Shown piece after piece: positions 3,663 through 45,054 of a stretch of 64,000 bases of DNA; within the stretch, counting starts at the first letter, position 1, and each line of letters begins with the position of its first letter. Source of the stretch: an uncultured Planctomycetaceae bacterium (lineage in GTDB: Bacteria > Planctomycetota > Planctomycetia > Planctomycetales > Planctomycetaceae); contig CAWFGE010000013.1 of NCBI GenBank assembly GCA_963815195.1, forward strand, positions 896,001 through 960,000, given 5' to 3'. Both the position numbers and the translations under genes were made by a program. The notes under the pieces were generated by a model. That model was not told the DNA's origin, did not search any database, and saw only the letters and a program-made list of their open reading frames with translations.

Positions 3663-5166
3663 TTAAATCGATTCTCGGCTTACAGTTTGAGTTCTATCTC
3701 TATCTACGGAATTCGCCGACAATACGTGCGGGCTTTGGGGCATGCCCGGTTGATCCTGCTCCATCAGCGATTCCAGCTCGGCAATCATGGCGGGTTCCAA
3801 AATATGCTCAATGCGGTCGGCGTCGCGGTCGACTTGAGCCGGGGCGATGTCGGCATAGTGAATCAAAAACAATTCCCACATCCGATGATTCCGCACCGCG
3901 CGGCGGGCGAGTTCCAGGCCTTTGGGAGTCAAGCGATAACGTTCCTGCGCATCCCGCCACATCATTCCCTGCGTTTGCGCATCCCGCAAGACCCGCCGCA
4001 CGCGAACCGCCGTCCAGGTTCGCCTTAGCAGAAGGTCTTCCATCGTGACAGATTGGGCAAGAACATCGTCTTGAACCATCATGGGCATTTTCGATTCGAT
4101 GACTTCAAACGTAGCCCGCAGCAAATCGTGCTGGCCCACGCGTCGGCGGAGTCGGTGATGATTCCACAACCGATAAACGACACCGCGCTTCGCCCCGAAA
4201 AACAGGCTCACGAGAAAGAACACCGATTCGACCACGACAATCACGGCCCCGGTCGCCAGTTTGGGAATCAGCGAACTCGCCAAAACGCCCGCAAACGCGC
4301 TTCCGCCGCCGATGCCCGCCGACACGAGCGTCATCGTCACAAGATGATCAGACCAGAACCGAGCGGCCGCGGCGGGGATAATCAAAATCGCGACAACCAG
4401 GATTAAGCCCACGCTCTGGAGTCCAATCACCGTCACCGAAACCACAATGCCCATCAACAATAAATCGAGCACCGTCACCGGCCAGCCGACAGCCTTCGCG
4501 AATTCCTCGTCAAAACATAGCAGCGAAAACTCCTTAAAGAGGAGCCCGCAGAGAACCAACACCACAAGCGAGGCCTGGGCGATCAACACCACATCGGCAA
4601 GAATCATGCGGGCGGCCTGGCCGAAGATAAAATCCCTGAGTCCCGCCGAACTCCCTCCCGGCAGACTTTGAATCACCGTAAACAGCGAGATGCCGAGACC
4701 GTAAAAGATGCTGAGCACAATCGCAAGCGCTGCATCTTCTTTGACGCGGGACGACTTGACGATCAACAACGTGCACAACACGCCCGAGAGCGAGGAAATC
4801 GCCGCACCGATTAAAAGCCCCGACAAGTTCTTTCCCGTGCCTGGTTGCATGGCTTCCATAATCAGAAACGCCATGCCAATTCCCGGCAGCGAGGCATGTC
4901 CGACCACATCGCCCACCAGCGAGCGCTTTCGCAACAACATAAACACCCCCACGACTCCGCCGGAGATTCCCAGGAGCGTCGTGCCGAGCAGCACAATGCG
5001 GGTGTTATAGTCCTTGAGACTTAATGTCCGAAACAGACTCGCTTGTCAACGCGGAGTTGTTGGTTGCGTTCTGCTGCGCAAAAGCGTGGCTCGTCCAGAT
5101 CACAAGAACTAGGAAACCCAGGAGAATTGCACTCGATCTTTTCGTCCAAGGGAGGGGGATGCTCAT
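3663..5166 (-). CDS. Mn/Zn/Fe ABC transporter permease (TroC-like) with a C-terminal DtxR-type domain; frameshift near 5030
   Basis: [19 protein letters not shown] and [14 protein letters not shown] motifs; C-terminal [25 protein letters not shown]...ADRIEH. ATG at 5166 overlaps the ATPase stop codon; the frame shifts before [13 protein letters not shown]. Confidence 0.88.
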
Positions 5167-5966
5167 AGCGAATCCCCCATTTCCATGCGGTGGCCGACCT
5201 GGTCCAAGAGCGCGAGCTTTCCGCCATAGGTCTTTTTGAGGTTATCGGACGTAAAGGTTTTCGATGTCGGGCCGGCGGCGACGACTCTCATGTTAAGTAA
5301 TAACACATGGTCGAAGTATTCTTTCACGGTTTGCAGATCGTGATGCACGACGAGCGCGGTTTTTTGCGATTTCCGCAGTTCGCGGAGCAATTCCACGATG
5401 GCCCGTTCGGTCGCGGCATCCACGCCGGCGAACGGTTCATCCATCAGGTAGAGGTCGGCATCTTGAACCAAGGCTCTCGCTAAAAACACCCGCTGCTGCT
5501 GCCCGCCGGAGAGTTGGCTGATTTGCCGATGGGCATAAGGCCCCATGCCGACGCGCTCCAGGGCCTCCTGGGCGATCAGGCGGTACTTTCGCGTGACGGG
5601 TCTAAACCAGCCGATCTTGCGGTACAGGCCCATCGTCACGACCTGCAAGGCGTTGATCGGAAAATCCCAATCGACGGAGCCTCGCTGCGGGACATACGCC
5701 ACGCGGTCGCGGGATTTGCGATAGGGTTTTCCAAACACCTGCACGACGCCCGACGCGCGGGGCACGAGATCGAGAGCCGCCTTGATCAACGTCGATTTGC
5801 CCGCGCCGTTCGGCCCGATAATCGCGATCAACTTTCCCGCCGGGGCGACAAAATCAATATCCCAGAGCACCGGCTTGCGGTGATAAGCCACCGTCATATC
5901 TTGAATGGCGAGCGGCGATGTGCTAGGAGCCTCTTGAGGTGAAGTTGTGAAGGTGTTATCCAGCAT
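5163..5966 (-). CDS. Metal ABC transporter ATP-binding protein (TroB/MntB-like)
   Basis: Walker [46 protein letters not shown] and H-loop HHDL. Confidence 0.95.
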
Positions 5967-39348: not shown

Positions 39349-40588
39349 ATGATTACTATCTCCCCCGTCAAGCGCACCCTCGTCCCGATCGATAGTTTGG
39401 CGGCCCATCGGATTATGGGGCCGAACTATGATGAGTTCCAGAACGATGAGGAAATCTGGACCATCCTCCAGGAGAAGCCGGATTGCATTTTGCGCGTGAC
39501 GATGGCCCATTGCGATCAAATGCACAAAGAGGAGATCCTCAAAGACGGCTCGCCCGAAGCCTTGGACCAAGCCGCCTTGAACATGCGGCAGCTGATCGAT
39601 AGCCCCATGACCCGCGTGGTCGAAAACATGCTCTGGGTCTATGAGATCCGCGACCGCCGCCGGCCGGAACTTCGGCAGATTGGCCTGGGCGGAGCCGCGA
39701 AAACGAAGGAAATCCGCACCGAGCACACGCCCGAGGGTTCGGTGATCCGCAACGAAGGCATCCGCGAGGAAAAAGCCCGCGGCCGGGCGATGCTCATCGA
39801 GCGGACGCATTCTTACATCGGCACCGTCAACAACACCGTGGAAGATCAAACCGGCCAAATCACCGCCGCCCTCGAAAGCTACGCCGACGCCCGCAGCGAC
39901 GATTACGAAGCGACCGACGAGTTCGGCAACAAGCACCGCGTCTGGCTCGTCACGGAACGCGAGGCAATCGACAGCTTCATCCGCCTGTTCGCCGCCGAGC
40001 CTTGCGCTTTCGTCGCGGACGGCAACCACAGAAGCGCCGCCGCCGCGCTCTTGGGCCACGCAGAATATCTTGCGGTGTTCTTCACCACCAACCGCATGTG
40101 GCTCGCTCCCTACAACCGCCTGGTCAAACCGAAAAAACACATCGAGAACTGGCCCGAAGCCTTGGCCCAATCCTTCGAGGTGGAACCCCTGGGCGACCGG
40201 CCGGAGTTCCAGCCGGCGGCAACCCACGAAATCGGTTTCTATCTGCCGGGGAACTGGTATCGATTGCGGCCGAAAGCGGGCACCTTCGATCCACAAAACG
40301 CGGCCCAGTCGATCGATTCCGACATCGTGCAGAACCGCATCTTCAAAGATCTCTTAGATATCGAAGACCCCCGCGACGAGCAGTCTGACTTTCGTCGGCG
40401 GCAACAAAAGCTCCGCCTGGCTCAAAGCCCAAGTCGACCAAGGCGATCACGAGTTCGCCGTCACCCTGCCGCCCGTGACCATGCAGCAGTTCGTCGAAGT
40501 CTGCAAACAAAACCGCTTCATGCCCCCCAAGTCCACCTGGTTCGAACCCAAAATCCGCAGCGGTTTGGTGACGGCCCTGTTGGATTGA
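39349..40588 (+). CDS. DUF1015 family protein; frameshift near 40385
   Basis: PNYD, FVADGNHRSAAA and PYNRLV; the shifted frame ends FVGGNK...MPPKSTWFEPKIRSGL. Confidence 0.85.
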
Positions 40589-40599
40589 GTGATGCGCTC

Positions 40600-40753
40600 C
40601 GCCGGGTGCCACTGCTGGCTTGCCCAGCCGTGCTTTGAGAGTAGGAGTTCGGTCCGAAATGTTGGCATAGGTTTCCGGCGAATTGCATCCGGGGAAAGAT
40701 CAAAAACTCTTGCAGTTCGGCACTGCTGGGCAAGCCAGCAGCGGCACCCGGCG
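40600..40753. repeat. REPIN: inverted 34-bp REP pair (CGCCGGGTGCCACTGCTGGCTTGCCCAGCCGTGC)
   Basis: 40600-40633 versus 40720-40753, two mismatches; each arm is internally palindromic. Confidence 0.9.
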
Positions 40754-41197
40754 TTCCGTTTGGTAGCTTTTGTATTCATGCCGGAGCATCTGCATCTTTT
40801 GGTTTATCCCGTGGGAGAGTCGGAGGTCAGCGATTTGCTCAAGGCCATCAAGAAACCGTTTTCGTTTCGGATCAAAGGGCTTCTCAAAGAACAAAACAGT
40901 CCGTTGCTGAACCGCCTTACGATTCGAGAACGCCCCGGCAAGATGTCTTTCCGATACTGGCAAGAAGGAGGAGGCTATGACCGCAACCTCTATTCGGAAG
41001 AAGCCGTGATGGCCGCCATCGATTACATCCACGCCAACCCGGTCCGCCGGGGACTCGTCGAACAGACCCGGCAATGGAAATGGTCCAGTGCCCGCTGGTA
41101 CGAATCCGAGGGCCAAGAGGTCGATCCTGACCTTTCCCAAATCCACGGTCTCCCTTCCGAGTTCTTTACGAACACGGATAAAACAAGAGGAGGTTGA
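40754..41197 (+). mobile_element. REP-associated tyrosine transposase (RAYT, Y1 HUH family), 3' portion only
   Basis: FRLVAFVFMPEHLHLL (HUH), YWQEGGGYDRN, catalytic YIHANPVRRGLV and WKWSSA. The coding sequence begins abruptly at the REP arm and lacks the RAYT N-terminus. Confidence 0.9.
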
Positions 41198-41207
41198 ACA
41201 AGGATTC

Positions 41208-41286
41208 GCACTGGCAACAAGTTGCCAGTGGCACCCGAAAAGTCCTATATAAATGACACCACCAACTGACAGTGCCACCCCGCCGA
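41208..41286. repeat. Bipartite right end of the RAYT element (REP + spacer + ACTGACAGTGCCACCCCGCCG)
   Basis: Direct-orientation homolog at 43424-43497; inverted homolog at 43122-43199. Confidence 0.85.
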
Positions 41287-41338
41287 AATCGAGCAAAGTC
41301 GAACAATTAAACAGTTAACGTTGACTATAGGAGGCACG

Positions 41339-41638
41339 ATGTCCAACGAATGGCCCTTTGCTGATCAGAAGAACGTAGCTGTAATTACAGTGCGGCAAAT
41401 CGTTCATGATGGTCGCCCGATTTTACGCGTATCGCACGATATCGAGGATGGATGTTGGCAATTTCTCGAATGGGACTCACCTAAAGAAGAGCATGCAATG
41501 GTGGTTGCCCTCGAAAGAATTGTTGCCCTCGACCCATCCGTTAAAGAGTTAGCAGATTTGCCGCTTGGATGGAGAGCTATCCGGCGACAATTTGGCGATC
41601 CGTGGCATCGTGAGATTAATCCACATGTTCAAACCTGA
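41339..41638 (+). CDS. Small DUF2185/Imm33-like protein
   Basis: RBS AGGAGG; WPFADQKNVAVIT...VSHDIEDGCWQF...LDPSVKELADLPLGWRA; lower GC than host genes. Confidence 0.7.
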   Translation: MSNEWPFADQKNVAVITVRQIVHDGRPILRVSHDIEDGCWQFLEWDSPKEEHAMVVALERIVALDPSVKELADLPLGWRAIRRQFGDPWHREINPHVQT

Positions 41639-41649
41639 AATCGAGTGAC

Positions 41650-41782
41650 GTAGGGCCGGCTGTGCCGGCCTTTTCGACGAAGGGAATCATACTTATGCCC
41701 AATTGGCGGCTGGGTATGCCGGCCATTTGGTGCGAGAAAAATCGTTGTGTCAAAAACAAAAGGCCGGCACAGCCGGCCCTAC
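41650..41782. repeat. GTAG-type REPIN with a perfect 25-bp inverted repeat
   Basis: GTAGGGCCGGCTGTGCCGGCCTTTT (41650-41674) and its exact reverse complement (41758-41782). Confidence 0.9.
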
Positions 41783-41796
41783 TCGGCTTTGAAAAT

Positions 41797-42069
41797 TTAT
41801 TTTCCACAACATGCACATCGAGTTGTTGTTACTTCATAGTAAGGTGATGCGTTGGCTTGCCTCCTTTTGTATCGGAAGTTGTCAATTATTTCTTTTGGAG
41901 TTGTTGGCTCACCTCCACCTTCGCAGCCTTGGAGTAGGCACGCTGCTCGGCAATCCTCACGGCAACGATTGTTATAGTATTCCAGAATCACCATAAGTCT
42001 ATTGACTTCATCCTTAGTCAGATTGTCTAGCACGTCATACGCTAATTTGCCAATACTATCAGGTGTCAT
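41797..42069 (-). CDS. Small Cys-rich hypothetical protein ending CACCGK
   Basis: 90 aa; the start overlaps the stop of the upstream gene, suggesting translational coupling; low GC. Confidence 0.7.
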   Translation of the reverse strand: MTPDSIGKLAYDVLDNLTKDEVNRLMVILEYYNNRCREDCRAACLLQGCEGGGEPTTPKEIIDNFRYKRRQANASPYYEVTTTRCACCGK

Positions 42070-42691
42070 ATATCACCCCGCAGTTAGAACAGGTTCGCCT
42101 GAAACTAAATCGCTGACGGTCGTATTCTGGCTTCCAATGTCTGTCACACGCCGAACATTTGAGTCCGAGGTTTGGATACTTTTTCGCAACGTGACGATAA
42201 CCTTCTCGTTTATATTTCTGCTTTAGCCTTGCGAGTTCATGTTTCCATTCTCCTTCGAGTTCTACCCACGCATTCTTTAACCGTGCAAATTTTGCGGAGG
42301 ACACATCTCCGTCAAAAAGCACTTGCTGAATGTCGGCAACTAAGCGATGTAGTTTTTTTGCGACATTGGATTGGTATTCGAGTTTGCCTCGTCTGCGGTC
42401 AACCAAGTTCCATAAGCTCAATGTGAGAAGCAGGAGGGAAATAGCACCAGCAATAATTGCTACCCACAGGTCAATTGTTTTGGACTTGTTTTCTATGGAA
42501 TACAGAATTGATTGTGTGAACAGGACATATATGGATAAAACCACAGAACACCAATCCAGCAACTTCATCTGGGTTTCCATGCAATGGACACTCTGGTCGT
42601 ATGCAAACTCCATCATTTCAAGACCAGCCACCCTTCTGCGTAGCTCATCTAACTGCCGTGATGTTTGGTCCGCTCCGCTATCATTGGCCAT
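42059..42691 (-). CDS. Two-TM (SLATT-like) protein with C-terminal twin CxxC, resembling the mobilome CxxCx(11)CxxC family
   Basis: Two hydrophobic helices (WCSVVLSIYVLF; LWVAIIAGAISLLLLTLSLW), a helical region, then CSAC-x18-CSNCG; about 43% GC in a sampled line. Confidence 0.7.
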   Translation of the reverse strand: MANDSGADQTSRQLDELRRRVAGLEMMEFAYDQSVHCMETQMKLLDWCSVVLSIYVLFTQSILYSIENKSKTIDLWVAIIAGAISLLLLTLSLWNLVDRRRGKLEYQSNVAKKLHRLVADIQQVLFDGDVSSAKFARLKNAWVELEGEWKHELARLKQKYKREGYRHVAKKYPNLGLKCSACDRHWKPEYDRQRFSFRRTCSNCGVIYDT

Positions 42692-42924
42692 GAGAGATGT
42701 CCTTTTCGTAACTCGTTGTTTGAGATTTTTCTTAACATTTGTACTCAAGTCAATGTTTATGCCATCAAAACCGCTATATTTGGTAAAATCATGCGATTTT
42801 TCCCCATCATCTTGTATTTTTACCGCCGTGGGGCCGCAGGATTCCTCGCTAAACTGCCTAGTCAACGCAAATTGCTACTGAAAACCAAGTGTCTACTGGG
42901 TGTTTATCCTAATGTAAACGTGGC

Positions 42925-42960
42925 AAGCCTTGTCAATCGTGATGACTGACAAGGCTTTTT
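42925..42960 (+). terminator. Intrinsic terminator-like hairpin
   Basis: 11-bp stem AAGCCTTGTCA / TGACAAGGCTT running into a T tract. Confidence 0.55.
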
Positions 42961-43121
42961 AGTCCCATGACTCATACTTATGCCCAATTGGCGGCGGGGT
43001 GGCATGCTCATGGCTTTGCATGAGCATGTCTTCGGGACGCTTGATGAAGCTGGAGACATTGCATTTTGCCCTGGTTCCGTTAATCATGTCGTCGGATTTT
43101 CAGAATCCACGTTTCCTCAAA

Positions 43122-43497
43122 TCGGCGGGGTGGCACTGTCGGTTTGGGTTGTTTTTTATGAGGATCTTTCGGGTGCCACTGGCAGCTTGCCTGCCAGTGT
43201 TTTCTAAGACGATCTTCCGAACGACATGAATCCCTCAATCCGAAGAACGGACCCCAGAGTGGCAGACCATCGAAAAACCGTGAAACACTACCATGAACCG
43301 GGGGATTGTCACGAGCTGACGTTTTCCTGTTATCGCCGGGTGCCACTGGCAGCTTGCCTGCCAGTGTGAATCGGATGCACCAATCGAGTTTTGAAACGTC
43401 CCCCGATTCCATGTTGCTGGAAAGCACTGGCAACAAGTTGCCAGTGGCGCCCGAAAGACTCTTAACAATAACCCGGACTGACAGTGCCACCCCGCCG
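43122..43497 (+). mobile_element. Internally deleted RAYT element: left end + RAYT 5' fragment (43226-43369) + REP + right end
   Basis: The 47-codon ORF MNPSIRRTDPRVADHRKTVKHYHEPGDCHELTFSCYRRVPL... (below the ORF-track cutoff) looks like a RAYT N-terminus. It has identical 30-bp REPs at 43170-43199 and 43337-43366, and inverted bipartite ends at 43122 and 43497. Confidence 0.75.
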
Positions 43498-43650
43498 CCG
43501 GACTGCTAGAATTCTCCCACGCTTGGCTCGAAAACTTCTCAGGACCTTGATCGGCGCGTGATGCGCGTGTTTTGTCGCGCGGCTGGCCCGGATTGGCGGA
43601 TGCTGCATTACTCGGAATAACCAGGAGGCTTACGCCTCCCGCTCGCCTGT

Positions 43651-45054
43651 TTATGCTAGCTGTGGGATCGGCGCGGTCCCCGTTAACGCTCGGCTGATGT
43701 CGGTCGGGATGCCGGGGTGGAGGCGGAGTTGGCCGATGTCTAAGACGGTGCCCATGATGGTGGCGAGGACCTGGCCGCTGGTGACCGGTTCGCTGGCGGG
43801 GACCGAGGCGGTGCGGTCGGATTGGCCGATGACCTGGCCCATCGGCAGGCCCCCGCCGCTGAAGGCCAGCGTGCACAGGTTGCCCCAATGGTCGCGGCCG
43901 GCTTTTTTGTTGATGCGGGGCGTGCGGCCGAACTCGCCGGTGATCACGAGCAGCACATCGTTCGTCATCCCGCGCTCGGCGAGATCTTCGATAAAGGCGC
44001 TCGCGGCCTGATCGACGGCGGCGCCCAAGACCGGCATGCCGTCGTCGATCCCGAAGGCGTTGCCGTGCATGTCCCAGCCGGCACTCGTCACGGTCACAAA
44101 CCCGCAGCCGGCTTCCACGAGCCGACGGGCCAAGAGCATCTGCTTGCCCAGTGTCACCGGAGATTGCTTCTCCAGGACCTTGGCTTTGGACTGTAGCAGC
44201 GCCGGGGAAATATCGATGTGGCTCGTGTCGTATCGGCGGAGGGTTTCGGGGGATTCTTTGGAGAGATCGAACGCTTCCCCGATGCCGCCTAGGATCACAT
44301 CGAACGCCTGCTGCTGGAAGGCGTCGCTTCCGCCCAGGCCTTCCGAAGCCTCGGCATAGCGTTTGAGGCGGTCCAGGCGGGTCAACAGACTCCGGCGGTC
44401 GTCCAGGCGGGTTTGGGGGATGCTGAGTTCCATGTTCCGCACGATCTGGCTGCCGGCACTGGGATCGAACGGGGCGTATGACTTGGGCAGCGTGCCGGTG
44501 TCGCTGACGCGCTCGATTTGGGCGCCGAGTTTTTTATAGTCATCACCCACGGCACCGGGCGGGAGGACGGCGTTCATCGGAATGCCGGTGCGGGGATTGG
44601 TGACGCCGGCGATGCGGGCGAAAAGCGCCCCCATCATCGCTCCGGTCGAATTGCCGCCGGCCATGACGTGCTTGGCGGCGGTGGCGTGGCTGCCGATGCC
44701 ATGCCGATAGCTCCGCACGATCGCCAGGCGGTCGGCGAGCCGGGCGAGCTTGGCGAAGTGATAACCGAAGGTCAGGCCGGGAAGGTTTGTTTTGGCCTCG
44801 CCGAACATGGCCCGGTATTCGCGGGGCGCGGTCATTTTGGGATCGAAGGTTTCGATGTGGGTGGGTCCGCCTTGCAGGTTCAAGACGACGACGGCTTTGT
44901 CCTTCACAACCCGTCCCATCGCCGCTTGGGACTTGGCGGCCATCAAACCGGAAAGCGTCAACCCGCCCAGGCCCAAGGTGCCGATTTGCAGAAGCTCCCG
45001 CCGATTGAGGCCTTCCCAGTTCCCTGTGTAGCCGTCGGAGAAGATCGTGAGCAT
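43651..45054 (-). CDS. DUF1501 family protein
   Basis: NRRELLQIG, GGPTHIETFDPK, LARRLVEAG, WDMH and GEFGRTP...GRDHW. Confidence 0.92.
   Translation of the reverse strand: MLTIFSDGYTGNWEGLNRRELLQIGTLGLGGLTLSGLMAAKSQAAMGRVVKDKAVVVLNLQGGPTHIETFDPKMTAPREYRAMFGEAKTNLPGLTFGYHFAKLARLADRLAIVRSYRHGIGSHATAAKHVMAGGNSTGAMMGALFARIAGVTNPRTGIPMNAVLPPGAVGDDYKKLGAQIERVSDTGTLPKSYAPFDPSAGSQIVRNMELSIPQTRLDDRRSLLTRLDRLKRYAEASEGLGGSDAFQQQAFDVILGGIGEAFDLSKESPETLRRYDTSHIDISPALLQSKAKVLEKQSPVTLGKQMLLARRLVEAGCGFVTVTSAGWDMHGNAFGIDDGMPVLGAAVDQAASAFIEDLAERGMTNDVLLVITGEFGRTPRINKKAGRDHWGNLCTLAFSGGGLPMGQVIGQSDRTASVPASEPVTSGQVLATIMGTVLDIGQLRLHPGIPTDISRALTGTAPIPQLA

What the first reader, a model, noticed from the sequence alone, without database searches (positions are those of the whole stretch)
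40600..43650. Permuted RAYT transposase enclosing REP-delimited cargo cassettes: candidate REP/RAYT gene-capture platform
Seen: between the convergent DUF1015 and DUF1501 genes the order is REPIN (40600-40753), RAYT 3' part (40754-41197), bipartite end (41208-41286), DUF2185-like gene, GTAG REPIN (41650-41782), low-GC two-gene cassette, another REP (about 42996-43028), inverted bipartite end (43122-43199), RAYT 5' part (43226-43348), REP, second right end (43424-43497), REP (43622). The two RAYT pieces are on the same strand, do not overlap, and are in reverse order. Each is cut at a REP, and the 15-mer CGCCGGGTGCCACTG occurs at both outer junctions (40600-40614 and 43334-43348). Established: RAYTs are Y1/HUH enzymes that cleave REP hairpins on ssDNA and are usually described as domesticated single genes flanked by REPs. 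Inference: either a circle carrying rayt plus cargo integrated through a site inside rayt, or two tandem elements decayed. In both cases cargo genes have accumulated in an integron-like way between REP hairpins. An estimated 20-odd codons between the two pieces are missing, so simple recircularisation would not rebuild the gene.
Basis: partly seen in the sequence, partly recalled or inferred. Interest (0 to 1): 0.82.

Follow-up and report, generated by a model that had tools for sequence, protein, structure and literature searches.

The report
Scrambled remains of twin REP transposons
Two non-overlapping halves of one hairpin-repeat transposase gene sit in reverse order around foreign-looking genes, and are likely what is left of two tandem copies of the element whose outer halves were cut away at repeat ends; the site is one of many repeat-bounded gene islets in this bacterium rather than a dedicated gene-capture machine.

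Summary
The anatomy is real. The two RAYT pieces are 98-99% identical to one in-order paralog on contig C15; 73 bp are missing, and both cuts fall on a CG shared by gene and REP end. The shared 15-mer is only the end of a REP family (26 copies), not an attachment site. The order is RAYT-3' + right end, 1.84 kb cargo, left end + RAYT-5'. A sister species has two intact REPtron-cargo-REPtron direct repeats with about 1.8 kb of cargo, so tandem copies later trimmed at REP ends (about 55%) is preferred to circle integration (about 25%). The permuted order was not seen in 159 homologous loci. The genome has 30 such low-GC REP islets; REP ends join other DNA at a fixed dinucleotide (AG for GTAG REPs, CG for GTGG/GTGC REPs), often with long duplications, consistent with RAYT strand transfer. 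This scan had already noted that signature elsewhere in this genome. Integron features (attC, co-oriented cassettes, cargo reuse) were not met. Read support for the rayt junctions is lacking. Most interesting by-product: signs that whole REPtrons are copied, against the published view that RAYTs do not move.

The parts
40600..40753 (.). REPIN of the GTGC-CACTGCTGG subtype, CG at both ends; interior unique in the genome; its right end is joined to rayt at a shared GCG
40751..41197 (+). 3' part of rayt (147 codons; keeps HLH, WQ and YIHANP motifs); 2 differences in 223 bp from paralog G000:C15
41208..41286 (-). bipartite right end of the REPtron (inner GTGC hairpin, outer GTGG-CACTGT motif, terminal CG); the same rayt tail plus end occurs in G003
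41339..41638 (+). cargo gene 1, 99 aa, weakly Imm33/DUF2185-like; homologs in 13 of 150 family genomes
41644..41788 (.). 145-bp GTAG REPIN, ends AG...CT; 14 other near-identical copies; interior resembles the start of the C12 rayt
41797..42069 (-). 90-aa ORF with no family match; unverified as a gene
42059..42691 (-). cargo gene 2, 210 aa, like mobilome CxxCx(11)CxxC (SLATT-like membrane part plus Cys pairs); not found in 300 other genomes of the class
42969..42991 (+). stub of the GTAG REPIN interior (ATG CCC AAT TGG), cut at CG by the next element
42992..43124 (+). first 133 bp of a GTGG-CATGCTC REPIN, identical at C15:547384 and C20:287712, cut at CG by the left end
43123..43200 (+). bipartite left end of the REPtron; a related left end precedes the C15 paralog
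43201..43338 (+). rayt leader and 5' part (likely start GTG 43259, 26 codons); 3 differences in 138 bp from C15; cut at a shared CGCCG
43334..43497 (.).
43622..43650 (-). common GCGAG-footed hairpin downstream of DUF1501; not shown to belong to the event

Best explanation
The block is likely the remnant of two direct copies of one 0.8-kb REP-flanked RAYT element that enclosed 1.8 kb of foreign-looking DNA, each copy likely having lost its outer half when the end of a small REP doublet was joined to a CG inside the gene. Shown: the two pieces are complementary parts of one gene lineage, each still attached to its own element end; all eight element boundaries in the block lie at the terminal dinucleotide of a REP family; intact twin elements around cargo exist in a sister species. 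Inferred: a RAYT supplied in trans binds a REP on single-stranded DNA, nicks at C|G (GTGC/GTGG REPs) or C|T (GTAG REPs) and transfers the strand to another such dinucleotide, one end at a time; staggered joints duplicate or delete the DNA next to the REP, so REPINs, rayt fragments and incoming genes pile up in islets. On this reading the permutation is a scar and the element here is dead; gene capture would be a by-product of REP-end joining, not an ordered cassette system.
For: One lineage: 3 of 138 and 2 of 223 differences from C15, rates not distinguishable (p 0.37). Intact intermediates: G001:C9 (838-bp copies, 97%, cargo 1786 bp) and G001:C38 (675-bp copies, 98%, cargo 1762 bp), both starting at a REP end; window cargo 1836 bp; G000 C13:58.9-63.8 kb has a full rayt, cargo and a second 5' half. 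rayt cut at a REP end recurs: C15 is cut at AG by the GTAG REPIN; complete chromosome G022 has three stacked rayt fragments, one starting at a REP end. Junction rule: of 280 REP ends, 50 have a flank with another copy; 41 of 50 share the terminal dinucleotide with the native continuation (AG 13 of 13, CG 28 of 37); sharing of exactly 2 nt in 20 of 48 against 68 of 664 at ordinary repeat borders (p 9e-8). None of the 41 was a precise insertion; 19 of the 20 with the continuation within 20 kb show the target duplicated. The two outer REPINs differ, unlike a one-step cointegrate, and back-to-back REP ends around a CG were found once in the genome. E. coli TnpA-REP cleaves at C|T, recombines REP and linker sites in vitro, and was proposed to sequester flanking genes (PMC3333891, passages and section 25).
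Against: The two cuts lie only 73 bp apart; two independent cuts at CG sites would fall that close in 25% of pairs, and leave a gap that small in 11%, which mildly favours a coupled event. The twin elements in G001 belong to other rayt families. CG is frequent (11% of dinucleotides; 30 in 375 bp of rayt), and ordinary repeat borders share 2 or more letters in 329 of 664 cases, so one junction proves little. C|G cleavage is not tested. No intact rayt of this exact family was found in the 94.6% complete assembly; the nearest intact paralog (C11, 57%) has its own REP variant. No empty site exists in three same-genus genomes. No independent contig bridges either rayt junction.
Confidence: 0.55

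Rival explanations
1. A circle bearing one REPtron plus cargo (for example looped out of a twin composite) was opened inside rayt at two CGs 73 bp apart and joined to two REPIN ends in one integration.
For: Perfectly permuted, non-overlapping pieces with a small gap; both outer ends are GTGC-family REP ends at CG; staggered joints of 19-525 bp are common in this genome; circles reopened at alternative sites are part of the model in PMC3333891 section 25.
Against: The outer REPINs are different elements; a back-to-back acceptor site occurs once in the genome; no circle or empty site seen; one E. coli study found no REP or RAYT circles (10.1101/2024.07.17.603846, passages).
Confidence: 0.25
2. 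A dedicated integron-like platform in which RAYT adds ordered cassettes between REP hairpins at this site.
For: G001 has different REP-bounded cargo right after DUF1015 and at a second colinear site; 52 REP-to-REP gaps of 250-2500 bp against 7.2 expected, with GC 0.53 against 0.60; a co-oriented array exists at C12:907.7-911.2 kb.
Against: rayt here is destroyed; cargo blocks converge; no attC-like site in the block; neither cargo gene recurs in the genome or in G001-G003; 0 of 13 homolog loci of cargo gene 1 hold a rayt and 4 of 13 have a weak hairpin, against 23 of 150 background windows; 10 of the 28 annotated islet ORFs are ordinary IS transposases.
Confidence: 0.07
3. Passive pile-up: foreign genes arrived by other routes, REPINs collected where insertion is tolerated, and host recombination between short repeats made the scrambles.
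For: Synteny with G001 breaks often and mostly away from these REPs (24 of 151 breaks against 3 of 46 colinear gaps, p 0.14); the 5' junction has 11 of 15 letters of likeness to the REP end; the clustering null ignores that REPs avoid core genes.
Against: Junctions sit at a family-specific dinucleotide at a fixed distance from the REP foot, which homologous recombination would not produce.
Confidence: 0.08
4. Assembly error at the repeats.
For: The assembly has apparent frameshifts (DUF1015 end, C13 rayt); no independent contig spans the rayt junctions.
Against: The longest repeat shared with another locus is about 230 bp in a 1.2-Mb contig; both pieces differ from C15; contigs of other runs match 40975-41125, 42207-42589 and 43424-43668 with no difference; similar fragment stacks occur in a complete chromosome.
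Confidence: 0.05

Closest known systems
REPtron / RAYT (TnpA-REP) with REP, BIME and REPIN (Ton-Hoang 2012 PMC3333891, passages and section 25; Corneloup 2021 PMC8266576, abstract and part 1 of the discussion; Bertels and Rainey 2011 PMC3116915, passages)
   Same: HUH/Y1 gene flanked by inverted footed hairpins; dispersed REP doublets; ends at a fixed dinucleotide (CT for GTAG REPs); REPINs inserted into or beside REPINs; tandem REPIN-plus-flank repeats; gene sequestration already proposed.
   Different: Foot is GTGC (or GTGG) with CG ends; bipartite 80-bp ends; rayt in near-identical duplicates and fragments; twin REPtrons around cargo. [quoted passage not shown]
TnpA-Y1 subclass 2.6 and the marginal GTGG-rich arcs of subclass 2.2 (Quentin 2018 PMC6006769, Table 1, section 13 and passages)
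   Same: WQ, YIHxNP and SS motifs, length about 190 aa, atypical flanking hairpins with copies elsewhere.
   Different: EHLH rather than NH[LIV]H; planctomycete rather than Bacteroidetes; no tree against the published subclasses was built.
TIRtron / TIRYT (Di Nocera 2013 PMC3733652, passages)
   Same: Tyrosine transposase gene flanked by long inverted ends that also form dispersed families.
   Different: The ends here contain a REP-type footed hairpin and lack the GGGGWSAS consensus; the protein has no long C-terminal tail.
Integron gene cassettes (own knowledge)
   Same: Small, low-GC accessory genes separated by hairpin sites acted on as single strands.
   Different: No linked tyrosine integrase, no attC-like site, no common orientation, imprecise joints with duplication or loss.
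tnpA-REP fragments among prochlorosin genes (Laurenceau, 10.1101/2020.03.09.984088, part 1 of 2 read)
   Same: Full and truncated tnpA-REP copies interspersed with variable accessory genes; diversifying recombination proposed.
   Different: Subclass 2.1 enzymes; the authors later found no strong evidence either way for a causal link; no junction rule in the part read.

Membership tests
RAYT / REPtron | Y1 HUH transposase of the RAYT family | tested here: met
   3' piece NF047646 73.9 bits; intact paralog C11 99.8 bits, over cut-off, and hits the TnpA-REP structure 4er8 at E 3e-7
RAYT / REPtron | Gene flanked by inverted footed hairpins | tested here: met
   left end before the 5' piece, right end after the 3' piece; 62 of 80 homologous loci have a GTGCCAC hairpin and 76 of 80 some footed hairpin within 300 bp
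RAYT / REPtron | Canonical GT[AG]G foot | tested here: not met
   the cognate hairpins start GTGC; GTGG and GTAG occur in the outer motif and in other families
RAYT / REPtron | Cognate REPs dispersed in the genome | tested here: met
   85 inner and 31 outer motifs
RAYT / REPtron | Single-copy, non-jumping gene | tested here: not met
   98-99% copies at C13 and C15, 86% at C20; 97-98% twin REPtrons in G001; REPtrons with flanking direct repeats
RAYT / REPtron | Intact gene able to cleave its REPs on ssDNA | not testable with these tools
   gene split with 73 bp missing; no biochemistry
Quentin subclass 2.6 | Motifs NH[LIV]H, WQ, YIH[QN]NP, SS and placement in the clade | tested here: inconclusive
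   EHLH, WQ, YIHANP, WSS; no tree built
Integron / CALIN | Linked integron integrase | tested here: not met
   the only match over cut-off is on contig C25
Integron / CALIN | attC sites after each gene | tested here: not met
   simple pattern scan found none in 40500-43700; no covariance model was used
Integron / CALIN | Co-oriented cassettes | tested here: not met
   cargo gene 1 is on +, cargo gene 2 on -
Integrated circle (Campbell type) | Same attachment sequence duplicated at both ends, empty site in relatives | tested here: inconclusive
   the 15-mer is a generic REP end (26 copies); outer REPINs differ; flanking genes are not adjacent in G001-G003
Composite transposon | Whole unit found at more than one site | tested here: not met
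   cargo has no second copy in G000 or G001-G003

The most novel reading that the evidence does not exclude
In planctomycetes RAYTs are not domesticated: they copy whole REPtrons, build REPtron-cargo-REPtron composites and loop out REPtron-plus-cargo circles that re-enter at REP ends by C|G strand transfer, which makes REP islets an integrase-free, genome-wide gene-capture system; this locus would be such a circle integrated through its own rayt.
Probability: 0.2. Interest if true: 0.8.

Novelty: new variant of a known kind. Interest (0 to 1): 0.45.

Why it matters
What RAYTs do in cells is an open question, and the papers read here describe them as non-jumping. The permuted gene itself is probably a scar. 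But the junction rule (AG for GTAG REPs, CG for GTGC/GTGG REPs), the long duplications and the twin REPtrons around cargo give a direct prediction for a simple cleavage assay, and suggest that in this lineage RAYT activity duplicates its own gene and brings accessory genes together. If so, REP islets would be a route of gene acquisition that needs no integrase.

Tried and rejected
Different RAYT clades for the two pieces: rejected. The 15-mer as attachment site or target duplication: rejected. A fixed 73-bp stagger: considered because two duplications measure 74-76 bp, rejected because lengths run from 19 to 525 bp. REP islets as main rearrangement breakpoints: not supported. Empty site: not obtainable; DUF1015 and this DUF1501 are not adjacent in G001-G003, and G002 and G003 have no islet after DUF1015. 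Read check: only short-read contigs were listed, none across a rayt junction; no RNA holder listed. Protein search for cargo gene 2 gave no hit among 152 candidates; PADLOC hits were weak. The fold of the 201-aa REPIN-rayt fusion ORF without an alignment was uninformative (pLDDT 32). Promoter scan at chance level. Literature: eight searches found no paper on a permuted rayt, on twin REPtrons around cargo, or on CG-ended GTGC REPs; the library lacks most subscription papers, I read passages or sections only, and no supplements (Figure S7 of PMC3333891 and of PMC3116915 may bear on precedent). A note in my notebook says 78 of 80 in-order loci; the correct count is 79.
Full report
1. Observation. 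The window is G000:C13:896001-960000 of an 8.87-Mb, 25-contig genome; the closest RAYT homologs are in records titled as Planctomycetota, so the host is inferred to be a planctomycete. The 3' piece matches the RAYT model NF047646 at 73.9 bits. A paralog at C15:625583-626097 has the left end, the 5' part, the missing stretch and part of the 3' part in normal order. Against it the window's 5' piece differs at 3 of 138 bases and the 3' piece at 2 of 223; 73 bp are absent; the cuts share CGCCG and GCG with the abutting REP ends. The intact element would be about 0.8 kb, left end-rayt-right end. In the window it reads 3' half + right end, 1836 bp of cargo (GC 0.458), left end + 5' half.

2. The repeats are mobile units of their own. 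The 15-mer at both outer junctions has 26 copies. 41644-41788 is a 145-bp unit with 14 other near-identical copies, 43334-43497 a 164-bp unit with 10 other full-length copies, and 42992-43124 the start of a third unit, identical at two other places. The 145-bp unit's interior resembles the start of the intact rayt on C12, so it looks like an internally deleted REPtron. REP families end at a fixed dinucleotide 4-5 nt outside the foot: AG for the main GTAG family (94% and 91% at the two positions), CG for GTGG families (83-93%).

3. Junction rule. Of 280 REP ends, 50 have an outside flank that occurs elsewhere, which shows the sequence before the joint. In 41 of 50 the native continuation begins with the element's terminal dinucleotide (AG 13 of 13, CG 28 of 37; background 0.046 and 0.11). 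A stricter control tempers this: ordinary repeat borders share 2 or more letters in 329 of 664 cases, but REP ends peak at exactly 2 (20 of 48 against 68 of 664, p 9e-8) and rarely share fewer (9 of 48 against 335 of 664). None of the 41 is a precise insertion; in 20 the continuation lies within 20 kb, and in 19 of these the target is duplicated across the REPIN or the REPIN-cargo block (lengths 19-525 bp, some being tandem repeats). E. coli TnpA-REP cuts at C|T near and far from its REP and recombines such sites in vitro, and the authors propose circles and sequestration of flanking genes (PMC3333891, passages and section 25). C|G cleavage for GTGC/GTGG REPs is my inference. I reached this pattern before consulting the scan's notes, which record the same signature elsewhere in this genome.

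4. The site is one of many. 313 REP motifs form 112 clusters, 30 longer than 600 bp; there are 52 REP-to-REP gaps of 250-2500 bp against 7.2 (maximum 15) under uniform placement, with mean GC 0.53 against 0.60 (the null ignores avoidance of core genes). Of 95 mechanically chosen ORFs in such gaps (93 from G000, 2 from G001), 28 have a Pfam family: 10 IS transposases, 2 Y1 transposases, 6 toxin- or immunity-type, 10 others. In G001 the spot after DUF1015 holds another REP array with other genes and no rayt match; G002 and G003 have no such array. A second colinear site also carries different REP-bounded cargo in G000 and G001. However, most synteny breaks between the two genomes are not at these REPs (24 of 151), and homologs of cargo gene 1 in 13 other genomes are not beside rayt (0 of 13) or enriched for hairpins (4 of 13 against 23 of 150). 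Cargo gene 2 was not found in 300 other genomes of the class.

5. The permutation. In 80 best GTDB loci, 79 have the N and C parts in order and one is cut by its contig end; in 79 of 80 metagenome loci with hits none is permuted. Both sets are biased to intact genes. The family is widespread (49 of 61 family genomes have a match) and normally a plain REPtron with GTGC hairpins. Intermediates for the tandem route exist: G001 has two direct REPtron-cargo-REPtron composites (838 bp, 97%; 675 bp, 98%; cargo 1786 and 1762 bp), and G000 C13:58.9-63.8 kb has a full rayt, cargo and a second 5' half. Truncation of rayt at REP ends also recurs (C15; complete chromosome G022). For circle integration the evidence is the small gap (25% of random CG pairs lie this close, 11% with a gap); against it, the outer REPINs differ and back-to-back REP ends occur once. 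I put the tandem route at 0.55, the circle at 0.25, passive pile-up at 0.08, a dedicated platform at 0.07 and mis-assembly at 0.05. Contigs of other runs match parts of the block and the right flank exactly but cross neither rayt junction.

6. Comparison with what is known. It works like a REP/RAYT system; the gene family and the flanking hairpins meet the REPtron definition, while the GTGC foot and the multi-copy, fragmenting gene depart from it. Protein motifs are nearest to subclass 2.6 or the GTGG-rich marginal arcs of Quentin 2018 (PMC6006769, Table 1 and section 13), untested by a tree. It fails the integron tests: the integrase is on another contig, no attC-like site, convergent cargo. 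REPIN-in-REPIN clusters and REPIN-plus-flank tandems are described (PMC3116915, passages). RAYTs are described as non-jumping (10.1101/2021.07.10.451892, passages). Against that, besides the twin composites, REPtrons in L067 and L069 are flanked by 76-bp and 37-38-bp direct repeats that end at REP ends, and 5 of 62 REPtron rows (4 distinct) have a flanking direct repeat of 27 bp or more, against 2 of 298 control pairs at 14 bp or more.

7. Verdict. Real anatomy; most likely a dead, scrambled twin REPtron inside one of many REP islets. A new variant of a known kind. Interest 0.45: the permutation is probably a scar and the junction signature was already noted by this scan, but the evidence that REPtrons duplicate and enclose cargo makes an open question testable.

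Noticed in passing
window 40589-41197 (+): The left REPIN reads in frame into the rayt 3' piece as a 202-codon ORF whose start overlaps the TGA at 40587-40589; it keeps HUH and the catalytic Tyr but lacks the N-terminal 50 codons. Fold uninformative.
   Followed up: partly
L067 about 4700-5560; L069 about 4600-5520: Whole REP-rayt-REP elements flanked by 76-bp and 37-38-bp direct repeats ending at the REP ends; suggests REPtrons insert as units.
   Followed up: partly
L034:9332-12792 (G001:C9); L306:2896-6007 (G001:C38): Direct twin REPtrons (97-98%) enclosing about 1.8 kb of cargo.
   Followed up: yes
L117 (G000:C12:907.7-911.2 kb): Three co-oriented 164-bp-type units and an intact rayt separate three genes, all on one strand: the most cassette-like array in the genome.
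   Followed up: partly
L147 (G022:C1:2593-2599.4 kb): Three rayt fragments (5', 5', 3') stacked with other genes in a complete chromosome; the 3' piece begins at a REP end.
   Followed up: partly
L210:2008-5126 versus G000:C23:197065-200019: Same colinear site carries different REP-bounded low-GC genes and IS remnants in the two species.
   Followed up: partly
L013:6418-7913 versus G000:C15:182320-183820: The gene right of the G001 array has its G000 ortholog beside another REP islet (C15:178.7-182.3 kb), hinting at a rearrangement between islets.
   Followed up: partly
window 40380-40420: Apparent frameshift near the end of the DUF1015 gene; G001-G003 orthologs are also split or have stops, so the assemblies look indel-prone.
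   Followed up: no
G000:C25:20804-21541 and C21:244862-246791: Integron integrase over the cut-off at a contig end, and an integrase C-terminal piece with one attC-like site on C21.
   Followed up: no
window 42925-42957: 14-bp-arm hairpin followed by a T run upstream of cargo gene 2; possible terminator.
   Followed up: no
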